Origin: a virus
Taxonomy: Duplodnaviria > Heunggongvirae > Uroviricota > Caudoviricetes
DNA: 23,598 nucleotides
Direction: 5' to 3' (one strand)
IMG/VR virus record: IMGVR_UViG_3300023312_000045
Numbering within the stretch: the stretch's first letter is position 1; each line of letters starts with the position of its first letter. Shown one piece after another: positions 77 to 20,401 of the stretch. Under the pieces are notes generated by a model that did not search any database, was not told the DNA's origin, and saw nothing but the letters and a program-made list of their open reading frames with translations. Position numbers and translations under genes: made by a program.

Positions 77-415
77 ATGGCTAAATCAGCAGCAGAGCGC
101 AAAGCCGCTCAGAGAGCCAGACAAGCTGCATCTGGTGTGCGTAAGCTGGAAATTGTGCTTGATGCTCAGGAAATTGAAATGCTGGAGCGTAGCTGTGCCA
201 CGCGTCGCCCCGGGCGTGCGCCTTACGAATTTGGTGAGTATATAGCGTTACTGATCCGCCAGGATGATGCACGCGTGCGCGGGCGTATAAAATCGATCAG
301 CAGAAAATGTTGCGGTAAGTGCGGCGAGAGAGTTCCAGTTAATTCATGCCCGTGTAATGGTGACTCGCAATGCTGGGTGACTAAAGGCTGGCATGAAACG
401 AAATTAATAGTGTGA
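77..415 (+). CDS. Hypothetical protein with helical N-terminus and Cys-rich C-terminal zinc-ribbon-like motif (CxxC...CPC...C)
   Basis: ORF 74..415; ATG at 77 preceded by AAGGTGA; C-terminal CCGKCGERVPVNSCPCNGDSQC cluster; followed by a rho-independent terminator. Confidence 0.45.
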   Translation: MAKSAAERKAAQRARQAASGVRKLEIVLDAQEIEMLERSCATRRPGRAPYEFGEYIALLIRQDDARVRGRIKSISRKCCGKCGERVPVNSCPCNGDSQCWVTKGWHETKLIV

Positions 416-423
416 CATGTCAC
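412..423. repeat. 12-bp perfect palindrome GTGACATGTCAC, copy 1 of 3
   Basis: Exact sequence read at 412-423, overlapping the stop codon of the 77..415 gene and about 40 bp upstream of a terminator hairpin. Confidence 0.9.
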
Positions 424-464
424 GAGTAGATTATGCATGATGAATTTGATGGGTTTTGAATACT

Positions 465-490
465 GCCGCCAACTATGGCGGCTTTATTTT
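465..490 (+). terminator. Rho-independent terminator (GCCGCCA-ACTA-TGGCGGC followed by TTTATTTT)
   Basis: 7-bp perfect stem, 4-nt loop, T-rich tract read directly. Confidence 0.7.
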
Positions 491-501
491 GCATGGTACT
501 A

Positions 502-516
502 TTACCACAACGGTAA
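502..516. promoter_or_regulatory. TTACC-N5-GGTAA inverted-repeat site E, upstream of terS, embedded in tandem direct repeat ACTATTACCAC
   Basis: tTTACCacaacGGTAA read at 502-516; a second degenerate copy TTACCacggtGGTTA follows at 520-534; terS ATG at 534. Confidence 0.5.
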
Positions 517-533
517 CTATTACCACGGTGGTT

Positions 534-2602: not shown

Positions 2603-2652
2603 TCCGCTGGTGGGGATAATACTGCTGATATCCTCTGGTGAGGATAAAACAA

Positions 2653-2677
2653 AGCCAGCTCATCGGCTGGCTGTTTG
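2653..2677 (+). terminator. Terminator-like hairpin after terL (AGCCAGC-TCATCG-GCTGGCT then GTTTG)
   Basis: 7-bp stem read directly; weak T tract; immediately followed by palindrome copy 2. Confidence 0.4.
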
Positions 2678-2688
2678 TGACATGTCAC
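2677..2688. repeat. 12-bp perfect palindrome GTGACATGTCAC, copy 2 of 3
   Basis: Exact sequence at 2677-2688 between the convergent terL (+) and 2693..3067 (-) genes. Confidence 0.9.
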
Positions 2689-2692: not shown

Positions 2693-3067
2693 TTATTGCT
2701 CGCTTAACTTCTGCTTCAGCAAGTAACCTTCGAGCATCCAGATTTTGTTTACAGCATTCTGCCGGGCAATCTTCCGACCAATTTCTGCATCAAAGTTTTC
2801 CGGGCTTGCACAGGCACTCTCTCCGGTAACGGTGAAGCCATTCTTCAGTACCAATACGCAGAAAGTGAGAAGGTGCAGAGCATCAGGGGTGGCTTCGACA
2901 TAAGGCTCCGGATTATAAATAAGGTCATCTTCTTTAGCCTGGTGGTCACCCTGCGCAGCAGTGAAAAAATGCTCACTGCAAATGAGGCCTTCAATTTTCT
3001 CGGGTGTTACACGCGGAGCGGTTTTGCCTTTCTCAACGATTTCTTTTTCGATTTGCTGGTCGTTCAT
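2693..3067 (-). CDS. Hypothetical moron protein (124 aa), opposite strand to the flanking late genes
   Basis: ORF with AAGGTGAG Shine-Dalgarno 11 nt upstream; inserted between terL and portal; possibly a gp49/Sf6 gene 66-like phage protein (weak recollection only). Confidence 0.5.
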   Translation of the reverse strand: MNDQQIEKEIVEKGKTAPRVTPEKIEGLICSEHFFTAAQGDHQAKEDDLIYNPEPYVEATPDALHLLTFCVLVLKNGFTVTGESACASPENFDAEIGRKIARQNAVNKIWMLEGYLLKQKLSEQ

Positions 3068-3078: not shown

Positions 3079-3102
3079 AAAAAAATGCCCGGCGAACCGG
3101 GC
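3079..3102 (-). terminator. Rho-independent terminator/attenuator hairpin directly upstream of the 124-aa gene RBS
   Basis: Minus-strand reading GCCCGG-UUCG-CCGGGC followed by AUUUUUUU, then AAGGUGAG and AUG. Confidence 0.55.
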
Positions 3103-3185
3103 GAACTGGAAGCAATGAGTTATGCCTTCCGTGGCTGTACGGGTTTACAGCATGAAGTCATCGCAATGGCGTCCTGCTGTAAAAA

Positions 3186-3222
3186 GGGCGGTGATAGTCC
3201 TTCAAGGGAAACTATCACCGCC
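3186..3222 (-). terminator. Rho-independent terminator downstream of the tRNA (12-bp perfect stem, 12-nt loop, then CUUUUU on minus strand)
   Basis: GGCGGTGATAGT / ACTATCACCGCC inverted repeat read at 3187-3222 with A-tract 3181-3185 on the + strand. Confidence 0.65.
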
Positions 3223-3265
3223 AAGCACCTGGAACTTCTGGCATCACGGTCCTTAGGCGTGATTC

Positions 3266-3342
3266 TGGCGTGGCATGCAGGATTCGAACCTGCGACCAAC
3301 CGCTTAGAAGGCGGTTGCTCTGTCCAACTGAGCTAATGCCAC
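3266..3342 (-). tRNA. tRNA-Arg (anticodon UCU), phage-encoded argU-like
   Basis: Reverse complement folds as a canonical cloverleaf: acceptor GTGGCAT/ATGCCAC, D-stem GCTC/GAGC, anticodon stem ACCGC/GCGGT with loop CTTCTAA (anticodon TCT), T-stem GCAGG/CCTGC with TTCGAAT loop, discriminator G and encoded CCA. Confidence 0.88.
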
Positions 3343-3664
3343 AACGCTGAGAGCACTTAGCCTGTTAAGGCGCCACACTTTGTCGCGGCTCCATAAATGC
3401 TCTCATCGTTGTACCCTCGTCTCTTCCGAGGCGTCACACCGAATCGCCGGGATGGTGAATCCCCGTGCGCGGAATAAAACCGCTCGACTTGCACATTCCG
3501 GCTACCTGGTTCGTTTGCCCGAGCAAGGGAGGGTGCCCCTTAAACGTATCCAGACCGCTATCGGCGCATGTGCCATACGCCGTACTGCTCAAAATAAAAG
3601 CTCACTCCACCTGTTTAATTTAACGACAAGCCAGTCAGGTTAGTAACCAGAATGAGCCCTTTGG

Positions 3665-3679
3665 TTACCTGAAAGGTAA
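3665..3679. promoter_or_regulatory. TTACC-N5-GGTAA site A, upstream of the portal operon; followed by TAATTA -10-like hexamer
   Basis: TTACCtgaaaGGTAA read at 3665-3679; identical 17-mer TTACCTGAAAGGTAATA also present at site B. Confidence 0.55.
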
Positions 3680-3726
3680 TAATTAACGCGTTAAATGTCA
3701 ACCTTCTACGATAAATAAATCATATG

Positions 3727-3741: not shown

Positions 3742-3769
3742 TAATTTAATTGCGTACGGAGTCATTGAT

Positions 3770-3976
3770 ATGTGCATGGGTAGCTCACCATCAGTGCCTG
3801 CAACACCAGAAGTTCAGGCAGCACCACAGGAGCAGGATGCCGCCGTTGTTGATGCCCGCGACGAAGAAACACGTCGCCGTCGCGCTGCTGCTGGTCGTAG
3901 TTCTACGCTGCTTACCGGTTCTCAGGGCGACACATCAACCGCTAATACCAGCGGTAAAACGCTGCTTGGTCAGTAA
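3770..3976 (+). CDS. Small hypothetical protein (68 aa), low-complexity, first gene of the portal operon
   Basis: ORF with the same 12-nt RBS context CGGAGTCATTGA as the portal gene; no recognisable domain. Confidence 0.4.
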   Translation: MCMGSSPSVPATPEVQAAPQEQDAAVVDARDEETRRRRAAAGRSSTLLTGSQGDTSTANTSGKTLLGQ

Positions 3977-3990
3977 CCGGAGTCATTGAA

Positions 3991-5670
3991 ATGGCGGAAA
4001 CAACTAAAGAGCGATTGAACAAACAGTTCGCACAACTTGAAAGCGAGCGTCAGTCGTTCGAGCCGCACTGGCGCGAGTTGAGTGATTACATCAACCCGCG
4101 TGGTTCCCGCTTTCTGACTTCTGAAGTCAACCGTAACGATCGACGCAATACACGCATTATTGATTCGACCGGGACTATGGCGGCGCGCACTCTCGCCAGC
4201 GGCATGATGTCAGGCATCACAAGCCCTGCGCGTCCGTGGTTTCGCCTGGCTACGCCAGATCCTGAAATGATGGATTATGGTCCTGTTAAGTTGTGGCTCG
4301 AGGCGGTGCAGAACCGCATGAACGATATGTTCAATAAGTCGAATCTCTACCAGTCTCTTCCGCAGTTATACGGAAGCCTCGGCACATACAGCACTGGTGC
4401 AATGGCGGTGCTGGAGGATGACGAGGACATCATTCGCACAATGCCATTCCCGATAGGCAGTTACTACCTGGCTAACTCACCTCGTGGCAGTGTGGACACC
4501 TGTTTTCGCAAGTTCTCTATGACTGTTCGTCAGCTTGTTCAGGAGTTCGGGCTAAATAACGTCAGCGAATCCGTAAAAAGCATGTGGGAAAGCGGCACCT
4601 ACGAGAAGTGGATTGAAGTGATGCATTCGGTTTACCCGAACATTGACCGCGATACATCGAAGCTGGATAGCAAGAACAAGCCATTCAAATCGGTTTATTA
4701 CGAGGTTGGTGGCGATAACGACAAGTTGTTGCGTGAGTCCGGATTCGATGAGTTTCCAATTATGGCTCCGCGCTGGGAAGTTAACGGCGAAGATGTTTAT
4801 GGATCATCATGCCCGGGTATGCTGGCGCTTGGACCTGTTAAGGCATTGCAGCTTCTCCAGAAGCGCAAGTCGCAGTTGATTGATAAAGCCACCAATCCGC
4901 CGATGGTTGCTCCGACTTCCCTCAAGAATCAGCGCGCCTCCCTTCTTCCTGGCGACATCACGTATATCGATCAGATTACTGGTCAGGATGGTTTCAGGCC
5001 TGCTTATCTGGTTAACCCCAGTACAGCAGATTTGGTGGCAGACATTCAGGACACTCGTCAAATCATTAACAGCGCCTACTTTGTCGATCTGTTCATGATG
5101 TTGCAGAACATCAATACCCGCTCGATGCCTGTGGAAGCGGTGATCGAAATGAAAGAAGAAAAACTTCTGATGTTGGGGCCGGTTCTGGAGCGCCTGAACG
5201 ACGAATGTCTTAATCCTCTCATTGATCGCTCTTTCTCGATGATGGTGCGTAAAAACATGCTGCCGCCACCGCCTGACGCGATGGAAGGCATGCCCCTGAA
5301 GGTCGAATACATTTCCGTCATGGCTCAGGCGCAGAAGTCTATCGGCCTGTCCAGTCTGGCGTCCACGGTTAACTTCATTGGTCAACTTGCGCAAGCGAAA
5401 CCAGAAGCTCTCGACAAACTCAACGTTGATCAGGCGATCGATGCATTCGCTGATATGTCCGGAGTGTCTCCAACCGTCATTGTTCCGCAGGAACAGGTTG
5501 AGCAGGCTCGCCAGCAACGGGCACAGCAACAACAGCAGCAACAAATGATGGCGATGGGGATGGCGGCGGCACAGGGTGCCAAGACGCTAAGTGAAGCTAA
5601 AACTTCGGATCCGAGTGTTTTGTCAGCTATGGCGAATGCAGTTAGTGGTCAGGGTGGGCAATCACAATGA
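3991..5670 (+). CDS. Portal (head-to-tail connector) protein, T7 gp8-type
   Basis: 559 aa; the N-terminal LASGMMSGITSPARPWFRL region and the Q/A/M-rich C-terminus (QQRAQQQQQQQMMAMGMAAAQG) resemble the T7 connector as recalled; lies after the terminase genes. Confidence 0.8.
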   Translation: MAETTKERLNKQFAQLESERQSFEPHWRELSDYINPRGSRFLTSEVNRNDRRNTRIIDSTGTMAARTLASGMMSGITSPARPWFRLATPDPEMMDYGPVKLWLEAVQNRMNDMFNKSNLYQSLPQLYGSLGTYSTGAMAVLEDDEDIIRTMPFPIGSYYLANSPRGSVDTCFRKFSMTVRQLVQEFGLNNVSESVKSMWESGTYEKWIEVMHSVYPNIDRDTSKLDSKNKPFKSVYYEVGGDNDKLLRESGFDEFPIMAPRWEVNGEDVYGSSCPGMLALGPVKALQLLQKRKSQLIDKATNPPMVAPTSLKNQRASLLPGDITYIDQITGQDGFRPAYLVNPSTADLVADIQDTRQIINSAYFVDLFMMLQNINTRSMPVEAVIEMKEEKLLMLGPVLERLNDECLNPLIDRSFSMMVRKNMLPPPPDAMEGMPLKVEYISVMAQAQKSIGLSSLASTVNFIGQLAQAKPEALDKLNVDQAIDAFADMSGVSPTVIVPQEQVEQARQQRAQQQQQQQMMAMGMAAAQGAKTLSEAKTSDPSVLSAMANAVSGQGGQSQ

Positions 5671-5963
5671 CAGATTACGAAGACGATCAACTGAAAGAAG
5701 AAAACGCCCGTAAGCAACGTGACATGGCGCAGCGTGAAATTGATGACATTCGCTTTGTCATGAGCAGTGAACAGGGGCGTCGCGTTGTCTGGTCGGTGCT
5801 GGAGAAAGGCCGTGTGTTTTCCGCTATCTCACCGATGGACGCTATGGCAATGGCATTTAATGAGGGGCAACGCAATCTGGCGCTGGAACTGTTTCAGCGC
5901 GTTATGGCGCATTGCCCTGAACAGTATTTGAAGATGGCCAAAGAGGCCAGTGAACAGGAGTGA
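5667..5963 (+). CDS. Small conserved head-assembly-associated hypothetical protein (98 aa)
   Basis: ATGA overlap with the portal stop; acidic helical protein between portal and scaffold. Confidence 0.5.
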   Translation: MTDYEDDQLKEENARKQRDMAQREIDDIRFVMSSEQGRRVVWSVLEKGRVFSAISPMDAMAMAFNEGQRNLALELFQRVMAHCPEQYLKMAKEASEQE

Positions 5964-5965
5964 TC

Positions 5966-6661
5966 ATGAATTTATTTGAGCGTTTGCTGTATCGCCGTAT
6001 TTGCAATGAGCAACCAGTCGATGGTGGAGCAGCTCCGGCTGCGTCAGAACCGTCAGCGCCTGCAGGTGATAACCCTGCTCCAGTTGGTGATCCATCACAA
6101 CAGGAAGGTGATAAGCCACAACCTGTTGCTGATGGCGATAAACCTGCTGATGACAAAAAGCCTGAAAACGATAAGCAGGATGAAAAAAAGGACGGCGATA
6201 AACCAGAGGGTGCGCCTGAAAAGTACGAGTTTCAGGCTGCCGAAGGCGTAGAGCTGGATACAGAAGCGTTGAAGGAATTCGAGCCGGTGGCGCGAGAACT
6301 AAACCTGACCAACGAGCAAGCGCAAAAGCTGGTTGATGCTTATCCGAAGATTCTGGCAGGTGTTCAGCAGCGCCAGGCAGAAGCCTGGCAGAAAACAACC
6401 GAGCAGTGGGCTGCGGATGTAAAAGCCGACAAAGAAATCGGTGGCGACAAGTTGATTTCTAACCTTAGCGCCGCACAGCGTGCGCTTGACCAGTTCGGGA
6501 CACCTGAACTCAAAGAATATCTGAACACCACCGGGCTGGGTAATCACCCTGATCTGGTCAAAACGTTCGTGAAAATCGGAAAGGCGATGTCTGAAGATGG
6601 CATGGTCACCGGTGGTAATGAAGGCCAGCGTAGTGCGGCCGAAGTGCTCTATGGCAAATAA
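5966..6661 (+). CDS. Scaffolding protein (putative)
   Basis: Position between portal and major capsid; acidic Pro/Asp/Lys-rich repeats (GDKPxxD) in the N-terminal half and helical C-terminal half; AACAGGAG RBS before ATG 5966. Confidence 0.6.
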   Translation: MNLFERLLYRRICNEQPVDGGAAPAASEPSAPAGDNPAPVGDPSQQEGDKPQPVADGDKPADDKKPENDKQDEKKDGDKPEGAPEKYEFQAAEGVELDTEALKEFEPVARELNLTNEQAQKLVDAYPKILAGVQQRQAEAWQKTTEQWAADVKADKEIGGDKLISNLSAAQRALDQFGTPELKEYLNTTGLGNHPDLVKTFVKIGKAMSEDGMVTGGNEGQRSAAEVLYGK

Positions 6662-6675
6662 GAGAGGAAATGACA

Positions 6676-7662
6676 ATGGCTGTTAAAGGCTTAACTGCGC
6701 TGACGCTGGCTGACTGGGGTAAGCGCGTCGATCCAAACGGGAAAGTCGATAAGATTATCGAGCTTCTCGGTCAAACTAACCCGATCCTTCAGGATATGCC
6801 TTTTGTCGAAGGGAACCTTCCTACCGGACACCGAACCACCATTCGTTCTGGTTTACCTTCAGCTACCTGGCGTTTGCTGAACTATGGCGTACAGCCAAGC
6901 AAATCAACCACAGTGCAGGTAACCGATTCCGTTGGCATGCTGGAAACCTATGCGGAAGTCGATAAGTCACTGGCTGATCTGAACGGCAATACCGCCGAAT
7001 TCCGCCTGTCTGAAGACCGCGCATTTATTGAAGCGATGAATCAGCAGATGGCGCAGACGCTGTTTTATGGTGATTCCAGCGTTAACCCTCAGCAGTTTAT
7101 GGGACTGTCCTCCCGCTATTCCAGCCTGTCTGCGGGTAATGCTCAGAACATCATTGATGCTGGTGGCACGGGTACAGATAACACCTCAATCTGGTTAGTG
7201 GTGTGGGGCGAAAACACCGTGCATGGCATCTTCCCGAAAGGGCAGAAGGCTGGCATCCAGATGGAAGATAAAGGCCAGGTGACACTGGAAGATGCTAATG
7301 GCGGCAAGTACGAAGGCTACCGTACCCATTACAAATGGGACAACGGACTTGCTCTGCGTGACTGGCGTTATGTTGTTCGCATTGCAAACATCGATGTCAG
7401 CAATCTTTCAGAACCATCCTCTGCCGCAAATATTGCGAAGTTGATGGTTAAAGCACTACATCGCATTCCAAACCGTGGCATGGGCCGCCCGGTGTTCTAC
7501 ATGAACCGCACTGTAGGCCAGGCTCTTGATCTGCAGTCTCTGGAGAAAACATCTCTGGCTATCAGCGTAAAAGAGACAGAAGGCGAGTGGTGGACTTCAT
7601 TCCGTGGTGTACCAATCCGTGAAACTGATGCGCTTCTGGAAACAGAAGCCAGCGTGGTGTAA
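6676..7662 (+). CDS. Major capsid protein (putative)
   Basis: About 330 aa, directly after scaffold, with GAGAGG RBS; gene-order inference, family not confirmed. Confidence 0.65.
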   Translation: MAVKGLTALTLADWGKRVDPNGKVDKIIELLGQTNPILQDMPFVEGNLPTGHRTTIRSGLPSATWRLLNYGVQPSKSTTVQVTDSVGMLETYAEVDKSLADLNGNTAEFRLSEDRAFIEAMNQQMAQTLFYGDSSVNPQQFMGLSSRYSSLSAGNAQNIIDAGGTGTDNTSIWLVVWGENTVHGIFPKGQKAGIQMEDKGQVTLEDANGGKYEGYRTHYKWDNGLALRDWRYVVRIANIDVSNLSEPSSAANIAKLMVKALHRIPNRGMGRPVFYMNRTVGQALDLQSLEKTSLAISVKETEGEWWTSFRGVPIRETDALLETEASVV

Positions 7663-7678
7663 CGCCTGTTATTAACCT

Positions 7679-7698
7679 GTGGGTCGTAACAGACCCAC
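7679..7698 (+). other. Intergenic hairpin (GTGGGTC-GTAACA-GACCCAC) after the capsid gene; possible RNA processing or partial terminator site
   Basis: 7-bp perfect stem read directly; no T tract. Confidence 0.35.
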
Positions 7699-7713
7699 TA
7701 ATGGAGAAAGAAG

Positions 7714-8151
7714 ATGATCACCGACAAACTGTTGATGTTCTCCGAAGCACAGGCGGTAACTGATACCGCGGCTTCTACTGACGTAATCGATCTCGGTCCA
7801 ATTGACGGAAAACGTCGTGATATCGGCGTTGGTTACCCGCTTGAGTTTTGGGCGCTGGTTAACACAGCCGCCACGGCAAGTGGTGATGCAACTGTAAACA
7901 TCCAGTTGCAGACGAGTGAAAATAACAGCTCATGGACCACTATTTATGATAGTGGCGCACTGGCAAAGACCGCCCTGACAGCAGGTAAACGAGTTGTTTC
8001 TGCAAAGGTGCCTGCCGGTGTTCAGCGATATCTGCGTGTTAACTACTCCGTCGCAACTGGCCCACTAACGGCTGGCGAATTCACTGCTGGTATCAGTCTT
8101 GATGTTGATGCCAATACGCCGTATCCGATCCGCTCAAAAGTAACTGGTTAA
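7714..8151 (+). CDS. Virion structural protein (145 aa; possible minor capsid/decoration protein)
   Basis: GGAGAAAG RBS; beta-rich Thr/Ser/Ala/Val composition; follows the capsid gene. Confidence 0.5.
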   Translation: MITDKLLMFSEAQAVTDTAASTDVIDLGPIDGKRRDIGVGYPLEFWALVNTAATASGDATVNIQLQTSENNSSWTTIYDSGALAKTALTAGKRVVSAKVPAGVQRYLRVNYSVATGPLTAGEFTAGISLDVDANTPYPIRSKVTG

Positions 8152-8161
8152 GGTGATATCG

Positions 8162-8497
8162 ATGTCAGGTGAGAAACCAAGATACCTCGTTCTGCGCCTC
8201 TCTCATATCCATAACACTCTGTGGCCGGAGGGGGCAGAAATCGAATACGAAGGTGAGCCTGGTAGCGCACTGGAACCTGTTAACGATGCAGCCAGACAGG
8301 CAAAAGCAAAAGTTGCAGGAAAGGTGTCAATGGCAGCAACCAGCACCAAAATCATCAATGATGTGTCAGATGATGGTGAACTGGATAAGCTCCGTGAAGA
8401 GTACGAATTGCTCTTTAACGAGAAGCCACACCATAACGCTAAAGCCGAAACGCTCCGCGAGAAGATCGCAGATAAGCGTAAAGAACTGGGCGTGTAA
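8162..8497 (+). CDS. Hypothetical protein (111 aa)
   Basis: ATG 8162 preceded by AAGGTG; followed by a strong terminator. Confidence 0.5.
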   Translation: MSGEKPRYLVLRLSHIHNTLWPEGAEIEYEGEPGSALEPVNDAARQAKAKVAGKVSMAATSTKIINDVSDDGELDKLREEYELLFNEKPHHNAKAETLREKIADKRKELGV

Positions 8498-8513
8498 GCC
8501 TCGCGAATCCGAC

Positions 8514-11947: not shown

Positions 11948-12411
11948 TGATCGGTGTTCAAATTATTCCTGCAACCGAAGAGCATCTTCAGATGATTTTG
12001 CCGGATGTTCGTCAGGCTGATATTGACGAACTGTATGCGGTATCACTGATGACTACCGAAGATGCGCTGCGTGTTGGTCTGCGTACTGCGACTATGGCCT
12101 GGTCAGGATTTGCGAACGGAGAACTGGTAACCATGTTTGGCGTATCTCCGGCGTCAATGATCGGTGGCAATGGTACGCCCTGGCTGGTCGGAACCAGCCG
12201 TATCGAAAAATATCAGAAGACATTTCTTCGCCACTGCCGCCCTGTATTGCAGCAGATGCTGGCAGTTTATCCGCGCCTGGAAAACTATGTCGACGAGCGA
12301 AACCATGTTGCCAAAGCATGGCTGCACTGGCTTGGATTCAGGCTTGAAGAAGCCGCGCCTTATGGTGCTCTTGGTCTTAATTTCCACAGATTTCACATGG
12401 AGAGAAAATAA
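11947..12411 (+). CDS. Internal virion protein A-like (putative)
   Basis: 154 aa; position between the gp12-like and gp14-like genes only. Confidence 0.45.
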   Translation: MIGVQIIPATEEHLQMILPDVRQADIDELYAVSLMTTEDALRVGLRTATMAWSGFANGELVTMFGVSPASMIGGNGTPWLVGTSRIEKYQKTFLRHCRPVLQQMLAVYPRLENYVDERNHVAKAWLHWLGFRLEEAAPYGALGLNFHRFHMERK

Positions 12412-12956
12412 TGTGCGATCCGGTTATTGCTGGTGGCGCAATGCTCGCCATGAGTGGCATTCAGGCATACACCCAGTACCAACAGGGAAAGTATGCCTCG
12501 AAGGTTGCAGAAGCGAACGCAGATATAGCCACAGCTCAGGCAAATGATGCAATAAACAGAGGTAACGCTGAAGCTGAGCAACGGCGCAGAGAGACCCGAC
12601 AGCGGCTTGGTACACAGGCGGCGACAATGGGGGCTACCGGCGCTGATTTATCTACAGGTAACGCGCTGGATATATTTGGCGACACTGCCCAGTTTGGCGC
12701 TCTTGATTCTCTGACGACGGTGAATAACGCGCAACGCGAGGCTTACGGTTATCAGGTTCAGGCTGCCAACTATAAAGCAGAAGCCAGTTCAGCCCGTAAA
12801 CAGGGGAATGTGGGAGCAGCAACAACATTGCTCACTGCGCCTCTGAAGGCATACGGTGCGTACCAGATGTTTGGTGGGACGTGGAGTCCGTTTACTCAAA
12901 GCACCCCTGCGCCAATCGGGGCAGCAGCAGGAACCAGATTACCCGGAGGATTATAA
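12411..12956 (+). CDS. Internal virion protein B (T7 gp14-like, putative)
   Basis: 181 aa beginning MC...IAGGAMLAMSGIQA, similar in pattern to the T7 gp14 N-terminus as recalled; Ala/Gln-rich. Confidence 0.55.
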   Translation: MCDPVIAGGAMLAMSGIQAYTQYQQGKYASKVAEANADIATAQANDAINRGNAEAEQRRRETRQRLGTQAATMGATGADLSTGNALDIFGDTAQFGALDSLTTVNNAQREAYGYQVQAANYKAEASSARKQGNVGAATTLLTAPLKAYGAYQMFGGTWSPFTQSTPAPIGAAAGTRLPGGL

Positions 12957-15577
12957 TGCCAGTCGTACCAACAGTATCCGGACGTCAGGTTGAGAGTCGT
13001 GGAGTTCAGTCAGCAGGCTTGCAGACGTTTTCTCAGCCAGGTATTGGTGATGCTTTTGTTCGGGCAGGGACAGAGGCAATTGATGTTTTGGGGCAGGCAA
13101 AACAGCGTGCCAATATCGCTCTGGCTCAGGAGGCATCCCTTAAACTCAGTCAGACAGGCAGTGATCTGCTGAATAATCCTGAAACAGGATTGCTTAACCT
13201 GAAAGGGAAAAATGCTATTGGAAAAGGTCAGGAGTATACGCAGCAGTTTGATGCCCAGGTCGAGCAACTGGCTATGTCGCTGCCGGATGAACAGGCTCGT
13301 AATGCTTTCATGCAGCAGGCGCAGCAGCAGCGCATTCAGTTCACTACGCAGGCCGGGAGGTACGAAATAGGACAGGTTCGCCAGTATGAGGCGGATATGC
13401 AGGATGCGACACTAAAAAACCTATCGATGCAGTTCCGTAACCCGACAATGGCAAACCAGGCAGGATTGAAGGCATATCATAGCATCATCGCTTACGGCGA
13501 AGCCCACGGCCAGAGTCAGGAAGAGATTGAACAGAACTGGGTTTCGTGGCGCGAGAATGCCGCGAACGGTGCGGCGGAGGCGTGGTATGTGCCGATGTAT
13601 CAACAGATGATGGGTCCGAACGGCAAGATTGAGGTAACCGATACACCGAGTGAGGCGCAGTTATTCTCTGCAATAATCTGGCAGGAGAGTGGCGGAAATC
13701 AGTACGGAAAGGACGGAACACCTCTGGTGTCGCCAAAAGGCGCTGTTGGCGTAGCGCAGGTGACGGAAGATACTGGCCCCGAAGCTGCCCGCCTTGCTGG
13801 CGTGCCGTGGGACCGAGATAAATGGTTGAATGACCCGCGCTATAATGCCCGCTTGGGGCAAGCTTATTTCGGCGCGCAGATGAAGAAATACGACAATAAC
13901 CCGGTTCTGGCAGTAGCTGCCTATAACGCTGGCCCAGGAAAGGTTGACGGCTGGATTAAACAGATTGGCGATCCGCGCACAGGCGAAGTCAGTAACGCCC
14001 AGTTTGCCGCAGCTATCCCATACGACGAGACGCGCAATTATGTGGCAAAAGTAACTGGCAGTGCTGGAGCTATTCCTGGATCTGCGACGATGGAAAACCT
14101 CATCGCACAGCCATTCTGGAACGCCATGAGTCCGGACAAAAAGTCGCAGATGATGAGCAAGGTTGCTGGCATGTACGACATGCAGGCTTCAGCCGGTCGC
14201 GTTGCGCTACAGAGTCGAATGCAGGACGACCTATCCAAAATTGAGGCCGGTAAGCAGGTGACGCCTATTTCAGCGCACGAATGGGCCGCCGTTATGCCGC
14301 TTCAGGCAGCGCCTGCCGAGCGCCTGCAGATGGAAAAAACCTTCCAGCAATACCAGCAGGCAATGACGCTACAACCTGTTTATCAGACCATTATGCAGGG
14401 CAACGTCCAGCAGGGTACCGCCGCCGTGCAGGCAATGGCACCGCAGGAAAACGACCCTGACTTTAAATACAAAGCAGAGCTTTATGCATCGGCAAAGGTC
14501 AAGCTTGGGCAGGTACTGAAGGCGCGGGAAGCGGATCCGGGGGCATGGCTGCAACAAAACTCTCCGGTTGTGCAGGCTGCATTCCAGCAGTACCTGAATG
14601 ACCCTTCATCTGGTGAATACCTAGTTTCCCGCATACAGTCTGAAAAAGACCGCCTGGGGATAATGAGCAAAAAAGTTTTACCGGAGTCCATGGTCAACGA
14701 CGTACTGCAGCGTATTGACAACACGCAGGAATCTAGCGTAAAGGCCATTCAGTCGGTGGCGCAGTCGTTCGGCAAATACTCGGATCAGGTGATGCAGCAG
14801 GTTCAGAAGAGCGCTTATCCTGCGTTGCAGGTTGTCATGGCTACCGAGAACCCGCGCGCGGCAAATGCGCTCTGGCAAAACCGTAGCGTTAAAACTGCTG
14901 ACTTACGCGGCAGTCTTGAGAAAACCGACGCGGATAGCGCCGACTCGTCATGGAATGACCAATCGAAAGATTTTGCTGGCACGATGGTTGTTCAGCCTGG
15001 TGGCACTGCCGTGTGGAATAACTTCAACGAGCAGGGAAAACGACTTACTTACATCAACATGCAGCGCGGAATGTCGGCGTCTGATGCAGCAAAACAGGCG
15101 TATCAGGACATCCTCGGCGAGCAGTACCAGACCAATGGCACTTGGCGGCTACCTAAGCGTGCAGGGATAGATATTCGTGACGTTAACGATGGTGCCAATG
15201 CGTATCTGAAAAACCTGTCAGCAGATCAGATTATGCCGCTTATTGGTGACCCAAGGCTACCTGATGAGGTCAACCGTGAGCAGAGTATCTCCCGCATTCG
15301 TGATAATGCGCAGTGGGTTACCAACAGCGACGAAACAGGACTTACCCTGATGCTCAACGGGCTGATCGTCAACGGTGCTGACGGCAACCCGATTACGGTG
15401 CCGTTCAACGATCTGGCGAAACTGGGAACAACCAACCGATCAGTATGGAACAGCATTACCAAGTTCATTGATACTCCGGTGAAATATACTCCCGGACAGT
15501 CTAAGGAATACAGCGCAGAAAGTCAGCGCGACAACCTGATTAACATTTTCCAGAACGGCCAGCAATCAGGACGATAA
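12956..15577 (+). CDS. Internal virion (ejection) protein with soluble lytic transglycosylase domain
   Basis: Start set at ATG 12956 (GGAGGA RBS, TAATG overlap) rather than ORF-track 12881. SLT family-1 signature read directly: WQESGGNQ (catalytic Glu-Ser), GVAQV, AYNAGPGKV, spanning about 13660-13960. Confidence 0.8.
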   Translation: MPVVPTVSGRQVESRGVQSAGLQTFSQPGIGDAFVRAGTEAIDVLGQAKQRANIALAQEASLKLSQTGSDLLNNPETGLLNLKGKNAIGKGQEYTQQFDAQVEQLAMSLPDEQARNAFMQQAQQQRIQFTTQAGRYEIGQVRQYEADMQDATLKNLSMQFRNPTMANQAGLKAYHSIIAYGEAHGQSQEEIEQNWVSWRENAANGAAEAWYVPMYQQMMGPNGKIEVTDTPSEAQLFSAIIWQESGGNQYGKDGTPLVSPKGAVGVAQVTEDTGPEAARLAGVPWDRDKWLNDPRYNARLGQAYFGAQMKKYDNNPVLAVAAYNAGPGKVDGWIKQIGDPRTGEVSNAQFAAAIPYDETRNYVAKVTGSAGAIPGSATMENLIAQPFWNAMSPDKKSQMMSKVAGMYDMQASAGRVALQSRMQDDLSKIEAGKQVTPISAHEWAAVMPLQAAPAERLQMEKTFQQYQQAMTLQPVYQTIMQGNVQQGTAAVQAMAPQENDPDFKYKAELYASAKVKLGQVLKAREADPGAWLQQNSPVVQAAFQQYLNDPSSGEYLVSRIQSEKDRLGIMSKKVLPESMVNDVLQRIDNTQESSVKAIQSVAQSFGKYSDQVMQQVQKSAYPALQVVMATENPRAANALWQNRSVKTADLRGSLEKTDADSADSSWNDQSKDFAGTMVVQPGGTAVWNNFNEQGKRLTYINMQRGMSASDAAKQAYQDILGEQYQTNGTWRLPKRAGIDIRDVNDGANAYLKNLSADQIMPLIGDPRLPDEVNREQSISRIRDNAQWVTNSDETGLTLMLNGLIVNGADGNPITVPFNDLAKLGTTNRSVWNSITKFIDTPVKYTPGQSKEYSAESQRDNLINIFQNGQQSGR

Positions 15578-15578
15578 C

Positions 15579-17276
15579 ATGCCAATTTACACAGATGATC
15601 CGGGACAGGGAATTAACCAGCCAATTGGCAACGCGCCAGCAGGGCTTGGCGAATCGCTGCTTTCTTCCCTTAAGCAGGGATTTGAAGAGGGGCCGGTCAT
15701 GTCCGGCTACCGCTTTGCGCAGGCCGACTCGCTGGCGAATGACCCAAACTCTACAGTTATCAGTAAGCAGGAAGCGGATGAGCTCCTGAAGCAGTACGGC
15801 GTAAAGAGCATAAACGTGCCAGATTCTGGCGTTACGCAGGCTTTTCTCGATCATGTTATTGCCGAACGCAAAGATTCTCTGGCACGCCAGCAGATCGCGA
15901 TGTCGGCACCGAGCGGGTGGGTAGCCACGCCGCTTAATTTCGCAGCCAGCCTAGCTGGTTCAATGGCAGATCCTGGTAACGTGGCGCTGGCGCTGGTTCC
16001 GTTCGCTGGAGAAGCAAAGGCGGCTTCTGTGCTTGGCCGATTTGGCGAGCGATTTGTTGCTGGTGCACGCATGGGGGCAGCGCAGGCGTTGGTGACCGTG
16101 CCGCTTACCGGGCTGGCAGCGGCGGCGGAAGGTGACGACTTCACCTATAGCAACGCGTTGGAAAGTACTTTCTTTAACACGATGGCTGGCGGTCTAATGC
16201 ATGCCGGCGGCGGCCTTATCGCCGATATCGTGCGACCGCGTCGCGTTCCCGATGCTGCAACGGGAGAGTCCCCGGCGTTTTCTGGCGATGCGCAGCCAAC
16301 CCCGGTGATAACGCCTGACAACATTCCGGCGGGCGTGAATATCCCTGAGGTTGGCGCTAACGCAGATCTGGCGGCGGCCATTTCCAGTGAAGCGGAGAGC
16401 TACGCATACAGCCGGGCTTATGACGACGTGGTTCCTGACTATATGGCGCGCCAGCAGGAGTTACAGAGCGGGCAGATCGGTAACGTTGCCGACCTGCGTG
16501 CCGAGCTTGCGGCTAATCAACGTCATGCTGACTCGCTTGATGCGACGCTGCAGCAGCGCACCAAAAAGTATCAGGGGCAGCGGATGAAGTTTAAGGATGC
16601 GCGCTCTAGGGCACTGAAAGAGATTCAGGCCGAGAAAGACGCCATCGCTGCACGCAATCAGGAGATCAACACATCGCTGGAACAGAACGCGACAGCAGAG
16701 CAGGCGCGCTGGCGCCAGTCTCAGATTTCCCGCGGCGAGATCCCCGACGACCTGAAAGTCACCATTTCCGAGCGTGCGCAGCAGATCCTGGACGGCATGC
16801 AGATGTCGCCGGTCGCTGGCGCAGTTCGCACTGCCGCAAGCGCCATCAGGGATGCTGACTGGAACGTGAACCAGCAGGCGTATCGCGCTGCGCTGGCACA
16901 CATGATGGAAGGACGTAGCCCAGATGTTGAGCCCTTCTATGAACTGCACAAACCAGCACTGCGTGAACGCGCCATCCATCGCATACAGAACCCGGCACGG
17001 CAGGTTGATGAAACGGCTCGCCCAGCAAGCGAAACAGCCGATCGGGTTTATCAAGAAACGCAAAAGGCAGATCATGAAATTACCGCTGCCGCTGCAGACC
17101 TTGATAACGAGCTCAACCTGAGTAACGCCCTGCTTGACGATATCGCTGTCGATAACCCTGATCTTGCGACCACGTTGCGCCAGAAACTCAATGATATTCG
17201 TGCCGACGCCAGCGACAATAGCATGAGCAACGCTTTCCGGGCATTTGCCGCCTGTATGATTAACCGGGGGATGTGA
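15579..17276 (+). CDS. Internal virion/ejection protein (Ala-rich, coiled-coil)
   Basis: 565 aa between two other ejection-protein genes; composition and position only. Confidence 0.5.
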   Translation: MPIYTDDPGQGINQPIGNAPAGLGESLLSSLKQGFEEGPVMSGYRFAQADSLANDPNSTVISKQEADELLKQYGVKSINVPDSGVTQAFLDHVIAERKDSLARQQIAMSAPSGWVATPLNFAASLAGSMADPGNVALALVPFAGEAKAASVLGRFGERFVAGARMGAAQALVTVPLTGLAAAAEGDDFTYSNALESTFFNTMAGGLMHAGGGLIADIVRPRRVPDAATGESPAFSGDAQPTPVITPDNIPAGVNIPEVGANADLAAAISSEAESYAYSRAYDDVVPDYMARQQELQSGQIGNVADLRAELAANQRHADSLDATLQQRTKKYQGQRMKFKDARSRALKEIQAEKDAIAARNQEINTSLEQNATAEQARWRQSQISRGEIPDDLKVTISERAQQILDGMQMSPVAGAVRTAASAIRDADWNVNQQAYRAALAHMMEGRSPDVEPFYELHKPALRERAIHRIQNPARQVDETARPASETADRVYQETQKADHEITAAAADLDNELNLSNALLDDIAVDNPDLATTLRQKLNDIRADASDNSMSNAFRAFAACMINRGM

Positions 17277-19825
17277 TGGCAGCAAACGAATTTTTGACGC
17301 AGTGCGAGCGCAGTGTAAATGCTGCCGCTGGTCGCGAGCTTTCTTCCGATGAGATGGAGTCGCTGGTGCGTGACATGAACGACACCACTAGGCGAATTCT
17401 GGCGACCAATGAGGCGCTGTCTCTGGAAGAGGCCGCGATGCGCGCAGCGGAAGAACTGAGCAATGCCGATATGCTGGCAAAACAGATTGAGGCTCGCAAT
17501 AAGGCAATCAACGCCCGTATTGCCGCACAACGACTTAGAGAGCTTCGTACTATCTGGAAAGACCGCCCGGATATCGGGCTTGAAGCAATGCTGGTTGGCC
17601 GCAACGATGCGCGTACCGGCGCCCGCCGGTCGGTATCTTCGGAGGTGGCGCAACTGCGCGGCAAGTATCATTCCGGTATCAACTACGATTTTGACCGTGC
17701 CGGGCTGGTGCAATTCATCGCCAGCGGCAGCAATGACCGGGAAATTGCCGATGCAATGTGGCGCATAGGGCGCGGGCAGTCAACTGACGGTATGACAAAG
17801 CAATCCGTAAGCGCTGCACAAATCATCATGAAATGGCAGGAAACTGCGCGTATTGATGAGAACCGCGCCGGGGCATGGATACGCAAAGAGCCGGGCTATA
17901 TAGTGCGCCAGTCACACGACATCATGAAGATCCGCGCCGCAGGTTATGAAGCATGGCGAAATGCTATTCTCCCGCGCCTTGATGAGCGCACTTTTGACGG
18001 CGTGGCTGACCGCGAGCAGTTCATGCGTAACATTTATAACGGGCTGGCTTCCGGCGTGCATCTTACATCTGAAAAGCCCGATTGGATGAATGGCTTTAAG
18101 GGATCGGCGAACGCAGCTAAACGCGCCAGCCAAGAGCGAATTTTGCACTTCAAAGATGGTATCTCGTGGCACGAGTACAACCAGCAATTCGGCACCGGCA
18201 GCCTGCGAGAAGCGCTGTTTGGTGGCTTAAACAGCGCTGCCCGCACAACGGGCATGATGCGCGTACTGGGCACTAACCCACAGAACATGTTTAAGTACCT
18301 GACGGACGCCATTGCTGAAGATATCAGCAAATCCGGAAGACCGGCAGCGTTGGCTGACTACATGACGAAGGTGCGTCGCATTAACCGTACCGTAATGCCG
18401 CAGGTTGACGGCTCGCTAAATATTCCTGGCAGCGTAGGCTGGGCCAATGCGTCGGCGGCTGTACGCGGCTGGTTGCGTATGAGCCAACTTGGTGGCGCGG
18501 TAATCTCATCGTTTAACGACGTGCCTATCGCCGCTACCGAGATGCGCTACCAAGGGCAGAATTTTATGCAGGCGTTGCTTGGTGCTATGAGAGGCCGCTT
18601 CACGCGTTACAACAGCGCGAAGCAGAAAGAGATCCTTTCCTCTATCGGAGTTTATTCCGACTCCATGACGCAGGAAATCATCCGGCGCATATCTGGTGAT
18701 GACACGCTGAATGGAAAGCTTGGTCGCGCGCAGCAGCTTTTCTTTAAGTACAACCTCATGAACTTCTGGACCGAGAGCGGTCGCAACAGCAACGCCATGA
18801 TGATAACCAACTGGCTTGCAAAGAATGCTGACCAGTCTCATGCGCGGCTACCGGAAGACCTGCGACGCGTGCTGGATCTGCACGGTATTGGCGAACGTGA
18901 GTGGGAAATTTTTCGCAACATGGACATGGCCGATAGCGAAGGTCGTAAGTTCATGACGACCAGCGGCATCCGCGGCGTGCCTGACGAAGTGATTGCCGGT
19001 TATGTAGAGAGTAAGGGGATCAAACCAACGCAGCGCGCTATCGCTGACGCACGCGATCAATTGGAAGGGCAGTTGCGCGGCTACATCCTTGACCGTCTGA
19101 ATATCGCCATGTCAGAGCCTGGCGATCGCACGCAGGCGTTTATGAAGATGGGCACGGTGCCAGGAACGGTGGCTGGGGAAGCAATACGATTCGCTGGTCA
19201 GTACAAATCGTTCACTGCAAGCTTCATGCAGAACGTACTAGGACGCGAAGTATTCGGGCGTGGTTATATTCCTGCTGGGCTTGGTGAGTCGAAAACCGGA
19301 TCGCTGACGAATGCGCTGCTACGTAACGGGAAGGGGGCTTTCCTTGGTGCTGCAAACCTCTTTGTCTGGGCGACTATGTTTGGTTATATCTCCATGCAGT
19401 CAAAACTCATGCTGAAAGGGCAAACACCACGCCCGGCAGATGCCAAGACGTTTCTCGCAGCCGCATCTCAGGGGGGCGGTCTTGGCATCTTGGGTGACTT
19501 CATGTTTGGTGAGGTCAACCGCATGGGGGCCGGGCCGGTTACGTCGCTAATGGGGCCAGCAGCATCGAACGCTGACAGCATTATCACGCTGCTCCAGCAG
19601 ACCACGAGAGGGGATGCAGATTTGGGTGACTGGTATCGCACGGCACTTGACAATACGCCATTCCTCAACGTGTTCTGGCTTCGTACGGCGATGAATGGTT
19701 TAATATTGAACCGGATACAAGATGCCCTTGACCCAGGCTCTCTTGAGCGTTATCAGCGCCGTGTTGAGCGTGAGCAGGGTAACGACTTTCTGATCCCACC
19801 ATCGCAGTTCATGCTAGGTAAATAA
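17276..19825 (+). CDS. Large internal virion/ejection protein (gp16-like role)
   Basis: 849 aa; last large gene of the ejection block; hydrophobic stretches near the C-terminus; TGATG overlap with the upstream gene. Confidence 0.55.
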   Translation: MAANEFLTQCERSVNAAAGRELSSDEMESLVRDMNDTTRRILATNEALSLEEAAMRAAEELSNADMLAKQIEARNKAINARIAAQRLRELRTIWKDRPDIGLEAMLVGRNDARTGARRSVSSEVAQLRGKYHSGINYDFDRAGLVQFIASGSNDREIADAMWRIGRGQSTDGMTKQSVSAAQIIMKWQETARIDENRAGAWIRKEPGYIVRQSHDIMKIRAAGYEAWRNAILPRLDERTFDGVADREQFMRNIYNGLASGVHLTSEKPDWMNGFKGSANAAKRASQERILHFKDGISWHEYNQQFGTGSLREALFGGLNSAARTTGMMRVLGTNPQNMFKYLTDAIAEDISKSGRPAALADYMTKVRRINRTVMPQVDGSLNIPGSVGWANASAAVRGWLRMSQLGGAVISSFNDVPIAATEMRYQGQNFMQALLGAMRGRFTRYNSAKQKEILSSIGVYSDSMTQEIIRRISGDDTLNGKLGRAQQLFFKYNLMNFWTESGRNSNAMMITNWLAKNADQSHARLPEDLRRVLDLHGIGEREWEIFRNMDMADSEGRKFMTTSGIRGVPDEVIAGYVESKGIKPTQRAIADARDQLEGQLRGYILDRLNIAMSEPGDRTQAFMKMGTVPGTVAGEAIRFAGQYKSFTASFMQNVLGREVFGRGYIPAGLGESKTGSLTNALLRNGKGAFLGAANLFVWATMFGYISMQSKLMLKGQTPRPADAKTFLAAASQGGGLGILGDFMFGEVNRMGAGPVTSLMGPAASNADSIITLLQQTTRGDADLGDWYRTALDNTPFLNVFWLRTAMNGLILNRIQDALDPGSLERYQRRVEREQGNDFLIPPSQFMLGK

Positions 19826-19827
19826 TA

Positions 19828-20388
19828 ATGAAGGCAATTATATTTTTTGTTTCAATATTGATGTCTGCATTTTCTTTTGCAGGGCAAAATGTTAAATGCG
19901 AACTTCAATACTTTGGAGATAGCGATAAATTTAAGGTAACTCAGTTTTCTTTTATGGGGATTCCATCTGATTCATACCTTTATACCTGTGCCGACTGTGG
20001 AGGCATCCAGATAAACGTGTTCCCATCTATTCAGACTGTTGCTTCCTACTCATTTGAAAACAACATTGATTTCGAAAGGAAAATCAATGCTGAATACAAC
20101 AGAAAAGACATAGCTAAACTTGAGATGGAAAACGTTACTCAAGGCGGGAGAATAAAATATTCAATCACCGATACTGGTTTGGCAGAGTTTTACCCAGAGG
20201 GCAAAAAGATAAGCTACCTCTACTTTTTAGCCAAGCAACAAAATGGTAAAGAACAAGTAGGTTATTCAGGATTTGTTACCTCTAACGGGGATAAGTCATG
20301 CTCAATTATTGCGACATATCCAGGAAAAGAAATTTCTTTTCTGGGAAGTAAATCTTTAAGCTACTTTATGAATCATATATCAATGTAG
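19828..20388 (+). CDS. Secreted/periplasmic hypothetical protein with Sec-type signal peptide (moron)
   Basis: N-terminus MKAIIFFVSILMSAFSFAGQ has n-h-c signal peptide organisation; coding DNA looks AT-rich relative to flanking virion genes; followed by a terminator. Confidence 0.6.
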   Translation: MKAIIFFVSILMSAFSFAGQNVKCELQYFGDSDKFKVTQFSFMGIPSDSYLYTCADCGGIQINVFPSIQTVASYSFENNIDFERKINAEYNRKDIAKLEMENVTQGGRIKYSITDTGLAEFYPEGKKISYLYFLAKQQNGKEQVGYSGFVTSNGDKSCSIIATYPGKEISFLGSKSLSYFMNHISM

Positions 20389-20389
20389 C

Positions 20390-20401
20390 GTGACATGTCA
20401 C
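20390..20401. repeat. 12-bp perfect palindrome GTGACATGTCAC, copy 3 of 3
   Basis: Exact sequence at 20390-20401, 2 nt after the stop of the 186-aa gene and abutting the terminator hairpin. Confidence 0.9.

What the first reader, a model, noticed from the sequence alone, without database searches (positions are those of the whole stretch)
412..20401. Three exact copies of the 12-bp palindrome GTGACATGTCAC, each abutting a terminator at a module boundary
Copies at 412-423 (after the zinc-ribbon gene, before terS), 2677-2688 (between terL and the moron gene, immediately after a hairpin) and 20390-20401 (after the secreted-protein gene, immediately before a terminator hairpin). A specific 12-mer is expected about 0.001 times in this window, so three copies is not chance. 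All three lie within a few bp of stop codons and terminator hairpins and at junctions between conserved virion modules and inserted cargo. Possible roles: binding site for a regulator or antiterminator, a recombination/insertion scar at moron boundaries, or a homing-endonuclease or packaging-related site.
Basis: seen in the sequence. Interest (0 to 1): 0.55.

Follow-up and report, generated by a model that had tools for sequence, protein, structure and literature searches.

The report
Operator motif of a phage regulator
The three identical 12-base palindromes are real and are most likely the DNA docking sites of a small, uncharacterised regulator protein encoded right next to the first copy, a protein-plus-site pair that recurs in many unrelated temperate phages and whose site looks like the bacterial chromosome signal matS with one base missing.

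Summary
Observation confirmed: GTGACATGTCAC occurs exactly at 412, 2677 and 20390 and nowhere else (0 of 100 shuffles gave any copy). The window is the late region of an epsilon15/phiV10-like (Uetakevirus) prophage. Every complete relative checked carries the 12-mer only at these same places, although flanks diverge to about 76% identity and the neighbouring cargo genes differ. Site 1 overlaps the stop codon of a 112-aa protein (epsilon15 gp49 / phiV10 gp55, PHROG 536), modelled as ribbon-helix-helix plus zinc ribbon. Distant homologues (26-41% identity) in N15/phiKO2, Vibrio, Yersinia P2-like, Aeromonas and metagenomic phages again come with GTGAC-NN-GTCAC, often on the regulator's own stop or start codon: 51 sites in 629 kb, against 0.7 on average and at most 7 for any other half-site. 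The best reading is therefore that the palindrome is this regulator's operator. In this genus each site lies 0-41 nt upstream of an intrinsic terminator at the end of a transcription unit, which suggests boundary or readthrough control. The direction of that effect is inferred, not shown. The half-sites equal those of matS (GTGAC-RNY-GTCAC), but the spacing is strictly 2 bp rather than 3. Scar, homing-endonuclease and packaging readings are not supported. I found no literature on the motif.

The parts
77..415 (+). Gene for the 112-aa regulator (epsilon15 gp49 / phiV10 gp55 family, PHROG 536). It has an N-terminal basic helix, a ribbon-helix-helix and a C-terminal Cys4 zinc ribbon, and is the last gene before terS.
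412..423 (.). Palindrome site 1, overlapping the regulator's TGA stop codon (413-415).
   Evidence: The same position holds the exact 12-mer in epsilon15, Tyrion, TL-2011b and phiv142-3 (one mismatch in phiV10), in 75 related IMG/VR loci, and at or within about 15 nt after the regulator's stop codon (10 of them overlapping it) in 12 of 21 species-representative prophages.
465..490 (+). Intrinsic terminator after site 1 (stem 465-482, T-run 483-490). It is followed by two Rep-type operators at 501-535 and by terS.
   Evidence: Relatives have different hairpin sequences at the same place.
2643..2672 (-). Minus-strand intrinsic terminator (stem 2672-2653, T-run 2652-2643) that ends the cargo gene 2693-3067.
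2677..2688 (.). Palindrome site 2, between the stop of the minus-strand cargo gene (2693) and its terminator. It is the least conserved of the three.
2693..3067 (-). Variable cargo gene (Phage_gp49_66 family) whose 3' end abuts site 2.
   Evidence: Pfam PF13876, E 2e-34. At least 6 unrelated sequences take its place in relatives, diverging 4-8 nt from the palindrome.
19828..20388 (+). Variable cargo gene at the end of the virion operon; its stop codon lies 1 nt before site 3.
   Evidence: with no Pfam hit. Many unrelated sequences occupy this flank in relatives: 49 distinct 40-mers among 75 contexts, falling by eye into about 15 families.
20390..20401 (.). Palindrome site 3, directly abutting the terminator of the virion operon.
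20402..20429 (+). Intrinsic terminator (stem 20402-20419, tail TGTTTTTAAC).
   Evidence: The stem is kept with varied loops in 75 related contexts, but the search pattern itself required the 5' arm of the stem.

Best explanation
The palindrome, more fully Y-GTGAC-NN-GTCAC-R, is the double-stranded DNA operator of the small dimeric regulator encoded at 77-415. That protein is a ribbon-helix-helix DNA-binding domain fused to a zinc ribbon (epsilon15 gp49 / phiV10 gp55 / N15 gp46 family). One dimer would sit on each single 12-14 bp site. In this genus the three sites mark the 3' ends of transcription units: the early-right operon ending in the regulator gene, the minus-strand cargo gene next to terL, and the virion operon. 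Each lies 0-41 nt upstream of an intrinsic terminator, in the order site, hairpin, T-run. My favoured mechanism, which is inference, is that the bound protein acts as a roadblock or insulator. Together with the one-directional terminator it would stop transcription crossing these junctions in either direction once the regulator has accumulated. This would also explain why foreign cargo genes collect next to the sites: an insulated junction tolerates insertions. What is shown: the exact conservation, the restriction to these places, and the co-occurrence with the gene family. What is inferred: the physical binding and the sign of the effect.
Confidence: 0.65

Rival explanations
1. The palindrome is an antitermination loading site. 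The regulator binds it and is handed to RNA polymerase as the enzyme passes, so that the adjacent terminator is read through. This would be a lambda-Q-like late switch made by the last early gene. It would open terS-terL at site 1 and carry virion-operon transcription on towards the tail-fibre and lysis genes at site 3.
For: The gene is the last one before the late genes, and its stop codon overlaps site 1, which is followed by a terminator in many genera with unrelated hairpin sequences. No Q-like or other late regulator is annotated in phiV10 or epsilon15. The order site, hairpin, T-run is preferred. The C-terminal half is weakly similar to the RNA-polymerase-binding factors TraR and YbiI (E 0.02-0.03; hhalign about 60%). 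Extra sites in relatives all lie in late genes.
Against: At site 2 readthrough would send cargo-gene transcription antisense into terL. N15 and P2-like phages already have Q or Ogr and still carry the family. Many family sites have no terminator nearby. The L218 layout looks like repression. The helix aligned to TraR's channel-inserting helix is part of the RHH fold here, and the acidic tip is missing.
Confidence: 0.15
2. The sites are matS-like sequences bound by host MatP, or contested between MatP and the phage protein. They would tie phage or prophage DNA into the host's Ter-type organisation, MukBEF exclusion or divisome linkage, rather than control transcription.
Against: The spacing is strictly 2 bp (51 sites, against 1 with 3 bp), whereas matS has 3 bp. 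A host-factor site would not need to sit on the stop or start codon of one particular phage gene. hhalign of the family against E. coli MatP is not significant (probability 0.8%). Prophages are reported to avoid matS.
Confidence: 0.07
3. The palindrome is a recombination signal or scar: the target of a site-specific recombinase or homing endonuclease, or a short linker at which modules are exchanged, left at the borders of inserted cargo.
For: All three sites sit at mosaic junctions. Site 3 has many unrelated left flanks, about 15 families by eye. Site 2 has at least 6 unrelated right flanks that begin 4-8 nt from it. At site 1 an optional 70-aa ORF or SOS-regulated cargo is inserted to the right. 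Many E. coli alignments start exactly at the palindrome.
Against: The site is present whatever the cargo, and also where there is no cargo (epsilon15). No nuclease or recombinase gene travels with it. The same motif occurs inside coding regions and next to start codons in other phages. It is linked to a DNA-binding regulator gene, not to cargo. Twelve bases are too few for efficient homologous exchange.
Confidence: 0.04
4. The palindrome works as RNA or as a promoter element. Either it forms a small hairpin just 5' of the terminator or ribosome-binding site that modulates termination, processing or translation, or its GTGACA ends serve as divergent -35 hexamers.
For: GTGACA matches TTGACA at 5 of 6 positions, and the scan pairs it with CATGAT at site 1 and TATGAT at site 3 on the minus strand. 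In other phages sites often lie 3-20 nt before start codons.
Against: The RNA hairpin is marginal at -1.2 kcal/mol, z = 0. The centre dinucleotide varies while the half-sites and the 2-bp spacing are fixed, which points to a dimer on duplex DNA. The putative -10 elements lie in the variable flanks and are not conserved.
Confidence: 0.05

Closest known systems
MatP / matS (E. coli Ter macrodomain organiser)
   Same: Identical half-sites GTGAC...GTCAC. Single isolated palindromic sites, each bound (for MatP) by one dimer. The binder contains a ribbon-helix-helix preceded by a basic helix. A handful of dispersed sites rather than promoter-clustered operators.
   Different: The centre is 2 bp, not 3 bp (RNY). 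The phage protein has no four-helix bundle or coiled coil and has a zinc ribbon instead. There is no significant sequence similarity. The sites are on phage DNA at gene boundaries, not in the chromosomal terminus.
Arc, Mnt, CopG and omega-type ribbon-helix-helix repressors of phages and plasmids
   Same: Small dimeric RHH proteins that read inverted repeats. They are autoregulatory, with operators next to their own genes. In P22 such repressors sit inside the late region beside an antirepressor gene, as here.
   Different: Those operators overlap promoters and usually consist of tandem sub-sites bound cooperatively. Here there are single sites at the 3' ends of units, next to terminators, and the protein has an added zinc-ribbon domain.
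Lambda Q / qut late-gene antitermination module
   Same: The regulator is the last gene of the early operon. Its DNA site lies immediately downstream of the gene and upstream of a terminator that separates it from the late genes.
   Different: The Q-binding element is embedded in a constitutive promoter and acts on a sigma-paused complex. No conserved promoter is present here, there is no homology to any Q family, and there are three sites rather than one.
TraR / DksA C4 zinc-finger RNA-polymerase secondary-channel factors
   Same: The C-terminal half has a long helix followed by C-x2-C-G-x2-(I/L)-P ... G ... C. Phage TraR-like genes occupy similar late-early positions (my own knowledge).
   Different: The similarity is only marginal (E 0.02-0.03; hhalign about 60%). 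The second CxxC pair is arranged differently, the acidic helix tip is absent, and TraR and DksA do not bind DNA.

Membership tests
Ribbon-helix-helix regulator with palindromic operator | Protein has the strand-helix-helix fold that dimerises through the strand | tested here: inconclusive
Ribbon-helix-helix regulator with palindromic operator | Target is an inverted repeat with fixed half-site spacing, associated with the regulator gene | tested here: met
Ribbon-helix-helix regulator with palindromic operator | Direct sequence-specific binding of the protein to the site | not testable with these tools
   Needs EMSA, footprinting or ChIP.
matS (MatP binding site) | 13-bp consensus GTGAC-RNY-GTCAC | tested here: not met
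   The window sites are 12 bp with a 2-bp centre. The pooled loci hold 51 sites with N2 and 1 with N3. The consensus is taken from PMC3603311.
matS (MatP binding site) | Binder is MatP or a MatP homologue | tested here: not met
Lambda Q-type antitermination module | Binding element embedded in a conserved promoter, with a terminator downstream | tested here: not met
   A terminator is present, but the candidate -10 elements are not conserved between relatives.
Lambda Q-type antitermination module | Protein belongs to a Q family | tested here: not met
   There is no Pfam or NCBIfam match to any antiterminator family.
Intrinsic terminator (palindrome as part of the hairpin) | Stable G+C-rich stem followed by a T-run | tested here: not met
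   The palindrome alone folds at -1.2 kcal/mol, no better than shuffles. The adjacent hairpins are separate elements. One exception is Pantoea allii L232, where the motif is embedded in a longer hairpin followed by TTTTC.
DksA/TraR C4 zinc finger | CxxC-N17-CxxC finger with flanking helices and significant profile similarity | tested here: inconclusive
   The profile against PDB sequences finds TraR at E 0.023 and YbiI at 0.033. hhalign gives 59-61%. No member reaches Pfam PF01258.
Homing-endonuclease or site-specific recombination target | Site co-occurs with an enzyme gene, and its presence or absence tracks the inserted element | tested here: not met
   The site is present with every cargo variant and without cargo. 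No nuclease or recombinase is adjacent in the window.
Prophage repressor (Rep) operator or LexA box | ATTACC-N5-GGTAAT, or CTGT-N8-ACAG | tested here: not met
   These are different sequences. Rep-type operators are found separately at 501-535, 3664-3680, 21232, 22246 and 22627.

The most novel reading that the evidence does not exclude
The regulator is a DNA-tethered relative of the TraR/DksA polymerase-binding factors, with a MatP-like reading head. It would wait on matS-minus-one sites placed just upstream of terminators and engage RNA polymerase there to switch termination on or off. That would be a site-specific termination-control system of a kind not described, shared by Uetakevirus, N15-like, Vibrio and P2-like phages of MatP-containing bacteria.
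Probability: 0.12. Interest if true: 0.85.

Novelty: new variant of a known kind. Interest (0 to 1): 0.55.

Why it matters
How epsilon15/phiV10-type phages time and insulate their late genes is not known. About one in ten complete E. coli genomes carries the site-3 palindrome-terminator cassette. This work names a candidate cis-element and its likely binder, defines a 14-bp consensus with strict spacing, and shows that the pair is shared by very different temperate phages. The model can be tested directly with a gel shift and a terminator reporter. It also gives a functional reason why cargo genes, including antirepressors and SOS-regulated genes, pile up at these exact junctions. Finally, the near-identity to matS raises the question of whether phage and host systems are kept apart by a single base of spacing.

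Tried and rejected
1. Physical genome end: phiV10's record starts inside site 1, but only because it was opened right after the gp55 stop codon. Rejected.
2. Promoter with GTGACA as the -35: the paired -10 elements lie in variable flanks. Rejected.
3. RNA hairpin: too weak.
4. Literature search for the 12-mer, for epsilon15/phiV10 palindromes, for N15 gp46 and for phage MatP-like systems found nothing relevant. The MatP-matS structure paper is not held.
5. Pfam and NCBIfam gave no family for the regulator. Foldseek against the PDB and viral libraries was uninformative, and afdb50 was unavailable.
6. A profile-based locus search with alignment A1 failed because no block was conserved enough.
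7. Enlarging the TraR profile did not raise the hhalign probability.
8. A whole-host-genome count of the 12-mer was not possible, because patterns under 14 bases cannot be scanned in the collections.
9. The terminator-proximity control used random positions rather than intergenic ones, so the tenfold enrichment overstates the case.
Full report
**Observation.** GTGACATGTCAC occurs exactly three times in the window, at 412-423, 2677-2688 and 20390-20401. The only near copy has two mismatches, at 5719 inside a gene. None of 100 dinucleotide-preserving shuffles contained a single exact copy. The analytic expectation is 0.0014, so the count is not chance.

**What the window is.** Megablast places it in the epsilon15/phiV10 group (genus Uetakevirus), at 97-98% identity to E. 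coli phages phiv142-3, phiV10 and TL-2011b over the shared parts, and about 76-81% to Salmonella epsilon15 and Enterobacter Tyrion. From the ORF list and the annotated relatives, the layout is:
- 77-415: a small "transcriptional regulator" (epsilon15 gp49, phiV10 gp55)
- about 537-1130: terS
- 1127-2602: terL
- 2693-3067, minus strand: a variable gene of the Phage_gp49_66 family
- 3266-3342, minus strand: a tRNA-Arg
- 3750-19825: the virion operon
- 19828-20388: a variable gene
- from 20425 onwards: minus-strand cargo, including an AntA-type antirepressor gene

**Anatomy of the three sites.**
- Site 1 overlaps the regulator's TGA stop codon (G-TGA-C). It is followed after 41 nt by a terminator (stem 465-482, then TTTATTTT), then by two Rep-type operators (501-535), then by terS.
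- Site 2 lies between the stop of the minus-strand gene (2693) and that gene's terminator (stem 2672-2653, T-run on the minus strand).
- Site 3 starts one base after the stop of ORF 19828-20388 and directly abuts hairpin 20402-20419 followed by TGTTTTT.

In each case the order along the terminated transcript is gene stop, palindrome, hairpin, T-run. As RNA the palindrome folds only marginally, at -1.2 kcal/mol and no better than shuffles.

**Conservation within the genus.** In the complete genomes of phiV10, TL-2011b, epsilon15, Tyrion and phiv142-3, the 12-mer occurs only at the three homologous places and nowhere else in 39-45 kb. There are three exceptions. phiV10 site 1 has one mismatch. 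phiv142-3 site 2 has GTGACACGTCAC. TL-2011b lacks site 2. The flanks differ strongly between genera while the 12 bases do not change.

In 80 IMG/VR loci centred on the regulator gene (1.4 Mb, including 10 kb of early region each), the motif is found only at sites 1 and 2. Site 2 is the weakest of the three. Several prophages carry single-base variants, and the TL-2011b type has a different terminator without the motif.

**Mosaic junctions.**
- At site 3, the 75 usable contexts show 49 distinct upstream 40-mers, which fall by eye into about 15 unrelated families. The search pattern required the start of the hairpin, so conservation of the hairpin is partly imposed.
- At site 2, the terL side is constant, but at least six unrelated minus-strand genes end 4-8 nt from the palindrome.
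- At site 1, 24 of 75 loci have a 70-aa ORF between palindrome and terminator. The window keeps only a remnant of it, at 436-462. Citrobacter-type prophages have a LexA-box cargo there.
- In 527 of 5426 complete E. coli genomes the site-3 cassette is present, and many alignments begin exactly at the palindrome.

**Link to the neighbouring gene.** The 112-aa protein belongs to PHROG 536. tblastn finds homologues at 26-41% identity in quite different phages: the linear-plasmid phages N15 and phiKO2, Yersinia P2-like myoviruses, Vibrio siphoviruses and Aeromonas phages. In these phages:
- N15 and phiKO2 each have three copies of GTGAC-NN-GTCAC, one of them overlapping the homologue's stop codon.
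- The Yersinia phage has one copy, again on the stop codon.
- Vibrio phages K233, PhiPS02 and L219 have three each, one directly before terS.
- Metagenomic phages L213, L217 and L220 have one or two, on or next to the regulator's start or stop.
- An Aeromonas phage has two copies of the variant GTGACCGGACAC, one just before the regulator's start.
- In L218 the spacing is 1 bp. Two full sites and a partial third lie upstream of the -35, between the -35 and -10, and downstream of a TTGACA-N17-TATCAT promoter in front of the regulator's operon.

Of 21 species-representative prophages from Citrobacter to Xenorhabdus, 20 carry the motif. Pooling 629 kb of non-redundant loci gives 51 occurrences of GTGAC-N2-GTCAC. 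The other 1023 half-sites average 0.69, with a maximum of 7. Spacings of 0, 1, 3 and 4 bp give 0, 0, 1 and 0 occurrences. The base outside each half-site is a pyrimidine in 95% of cases, so the full motif is Y-GTGAC-NN-GTCAC-R. The centre varies (AT, CC, CA, AC, GC, AG). Fixed half-sites, fixed spacing and a free centre are what a dimer reading duplex DNA produces.

**The protein.** A 57-member alignment shows:
- a basic N-terminal helix, with R8 and R13 nearly invariant
- a short strand region followed by two helices
- a Cys-rich knuckle, with C79 and C82 invariant and C99 nearly so

**Resemblance to matS.** The matS consensus is GTGAC[AG]N[TC]GTCAC, 13 bp. matS was reported absent from 500 Escherichia and Salmonella prophages (PMC3603311). 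The phage motif has the same half-sites but a 2-bp centre, and that spacing is strict. The family profile shows no significant similarity to E. coli MatP, although both proteins have a basic helix directly before the RHH strand. So the motif resembles matS but is not matS, and the binder is not a detectable MatP homologue. Two Vibrio phages additionally carry one true matS-consensus site each.

**Mechanism.** What is shown is conservation, restriction to defined places, and co-occurrence with one gene family, often physically overlapping that gene's ends. From this I infer that the palindrome is the regulator's operator.

The effect of binding is less certain. I favour a roadblock or insulator role at the ends of transcription units, for four reasons:
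- RHH proteins are typically repressors.
- L218 shows a repression layout.
- N15/phiKO2 and Vibrio phages have sites inside early or maintenance genes.
- Only this reading makes sense at all three window sites, including site 2, where readthrough would be antisense to terL.

An insulated junction would also tolerate foreign insertions, which would explain the clustering of cargo. The main rival is Q-like antitermination, which fits sites 1 and 3, the gene's position and the TraR hint, but not site 2. The preference for the order site, hairpin, T-run (20 against 7) is compatible with either reading. It is weakened by shared ancestry among the sites and by my control not being restricted to intergenic DNA.

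**Novelty and limits.** Full-text searches found no paper containing the 12-mer or describing this regulator's target. The kind of thing, a small phage regulator with a palindromic operator, is ordinary. Three features are unusual: the domain fusion, single matS-like sites at terminators and gene ends, and the wide distribution. Nothing here demonstrates binding, and the whole-host count of the motif could not be made.

Noticed in passing
window 3266-3342 (-): A tRNA-Arg (anticodon TCT) lies in the variable region to the right of site 2. The plus-strand ORF 3085-3336 that overlaps it is probably not a gene. phiv142-3 and the O157 typing phages annotate the same tRNA.
   Followed up: partly
window 501-517, 519-535, 3664-3680, 21232-21248, 22246-22262, 22627-22643: These are Rep-type operators (ATTACC-N5-GGTAAT, as annotated in the epsilon15 record). 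They stand in front of terS, in front of the first head gene, and in the antirepressor and cargo region. There are 8 matches against 0.66 expected. This suggests the prophage repressor acts directly on late and cargo units.
   Followed up: partly
window 436-462; L020 10357-10570: The 41-nt spacer between site 1 and its terminator is the deletion remnant of a 70-aa ORF (MPKIRYDLEDMRDNS...). The intact ORF is present in 24 of 75 related loci.
   Followed up: yes
IMG/VR loci, e.g. L155 13251, L169 9360, L120 7053, L114 11579, L142 11055: Some relatives have extra sites inside coding regions. GTGACCCGTCAC lies in the tail-fibre N-terminal region (..RNL-RDPS-QAQDAATKNYVD) and GTGACGGGTCAC in a membrane-protein gene. 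The 12 bases stay fixed while neighbouring synonymous positions vary, which points to selection on the DNA itself.
   Followed up: partly
L221 about 10375, L222 about 10378, L226 about 10585: Pseudocitrobacter, Citrobacter werkmanii and Erwinia prophages carry a perfect LexA box (TACTGT-N8-ACAGTA) about 35 nt to the right of site 1. An SOS-controlled gene has therefore been inserted at that junction.
   Followed up: no
L232 10336-10360 (Pantoea allii): Here the motif is embedded in a longer inverted repeat, GCCGTGACCTGTCACGGC followed by TTTTC, so operator and terminator hairpin appear fused.
   Followed up: no
L088 19491 and L091 8818 (Vibrio phages K233, PhiPS02): Each phage has one true 13-bp matS-consensus site, GTGACACCGTCAC and GTGACGGTGTCAC. 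The two centres are reverse complements of each other within otherwise collinear flanks. Each site overlaps a stop codon and precedes a hairpin.
   Followed up: no
L086 (N15) and L089 (phiKO2): The only 5-N2-5 palindrome more frequent than GTGAC in these phages is CGACC-NN-GGTCG, with 4 copies. It presumably corresponds to the four dispersed 'putative plasmid partitioning sites' annotated in phiKO2, but coordinates were not compared.
   Followed up: no
host range of the regulator family: Homologues are found almost only in phages and prophages of Enterobacterales, Vibrionales and Aeromonadales, orders that to my knowledge also possess MatP/matS. One Advenella MAG contig and a weak Pseudomonas phage hit are the exceptions.
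   Followed up: no
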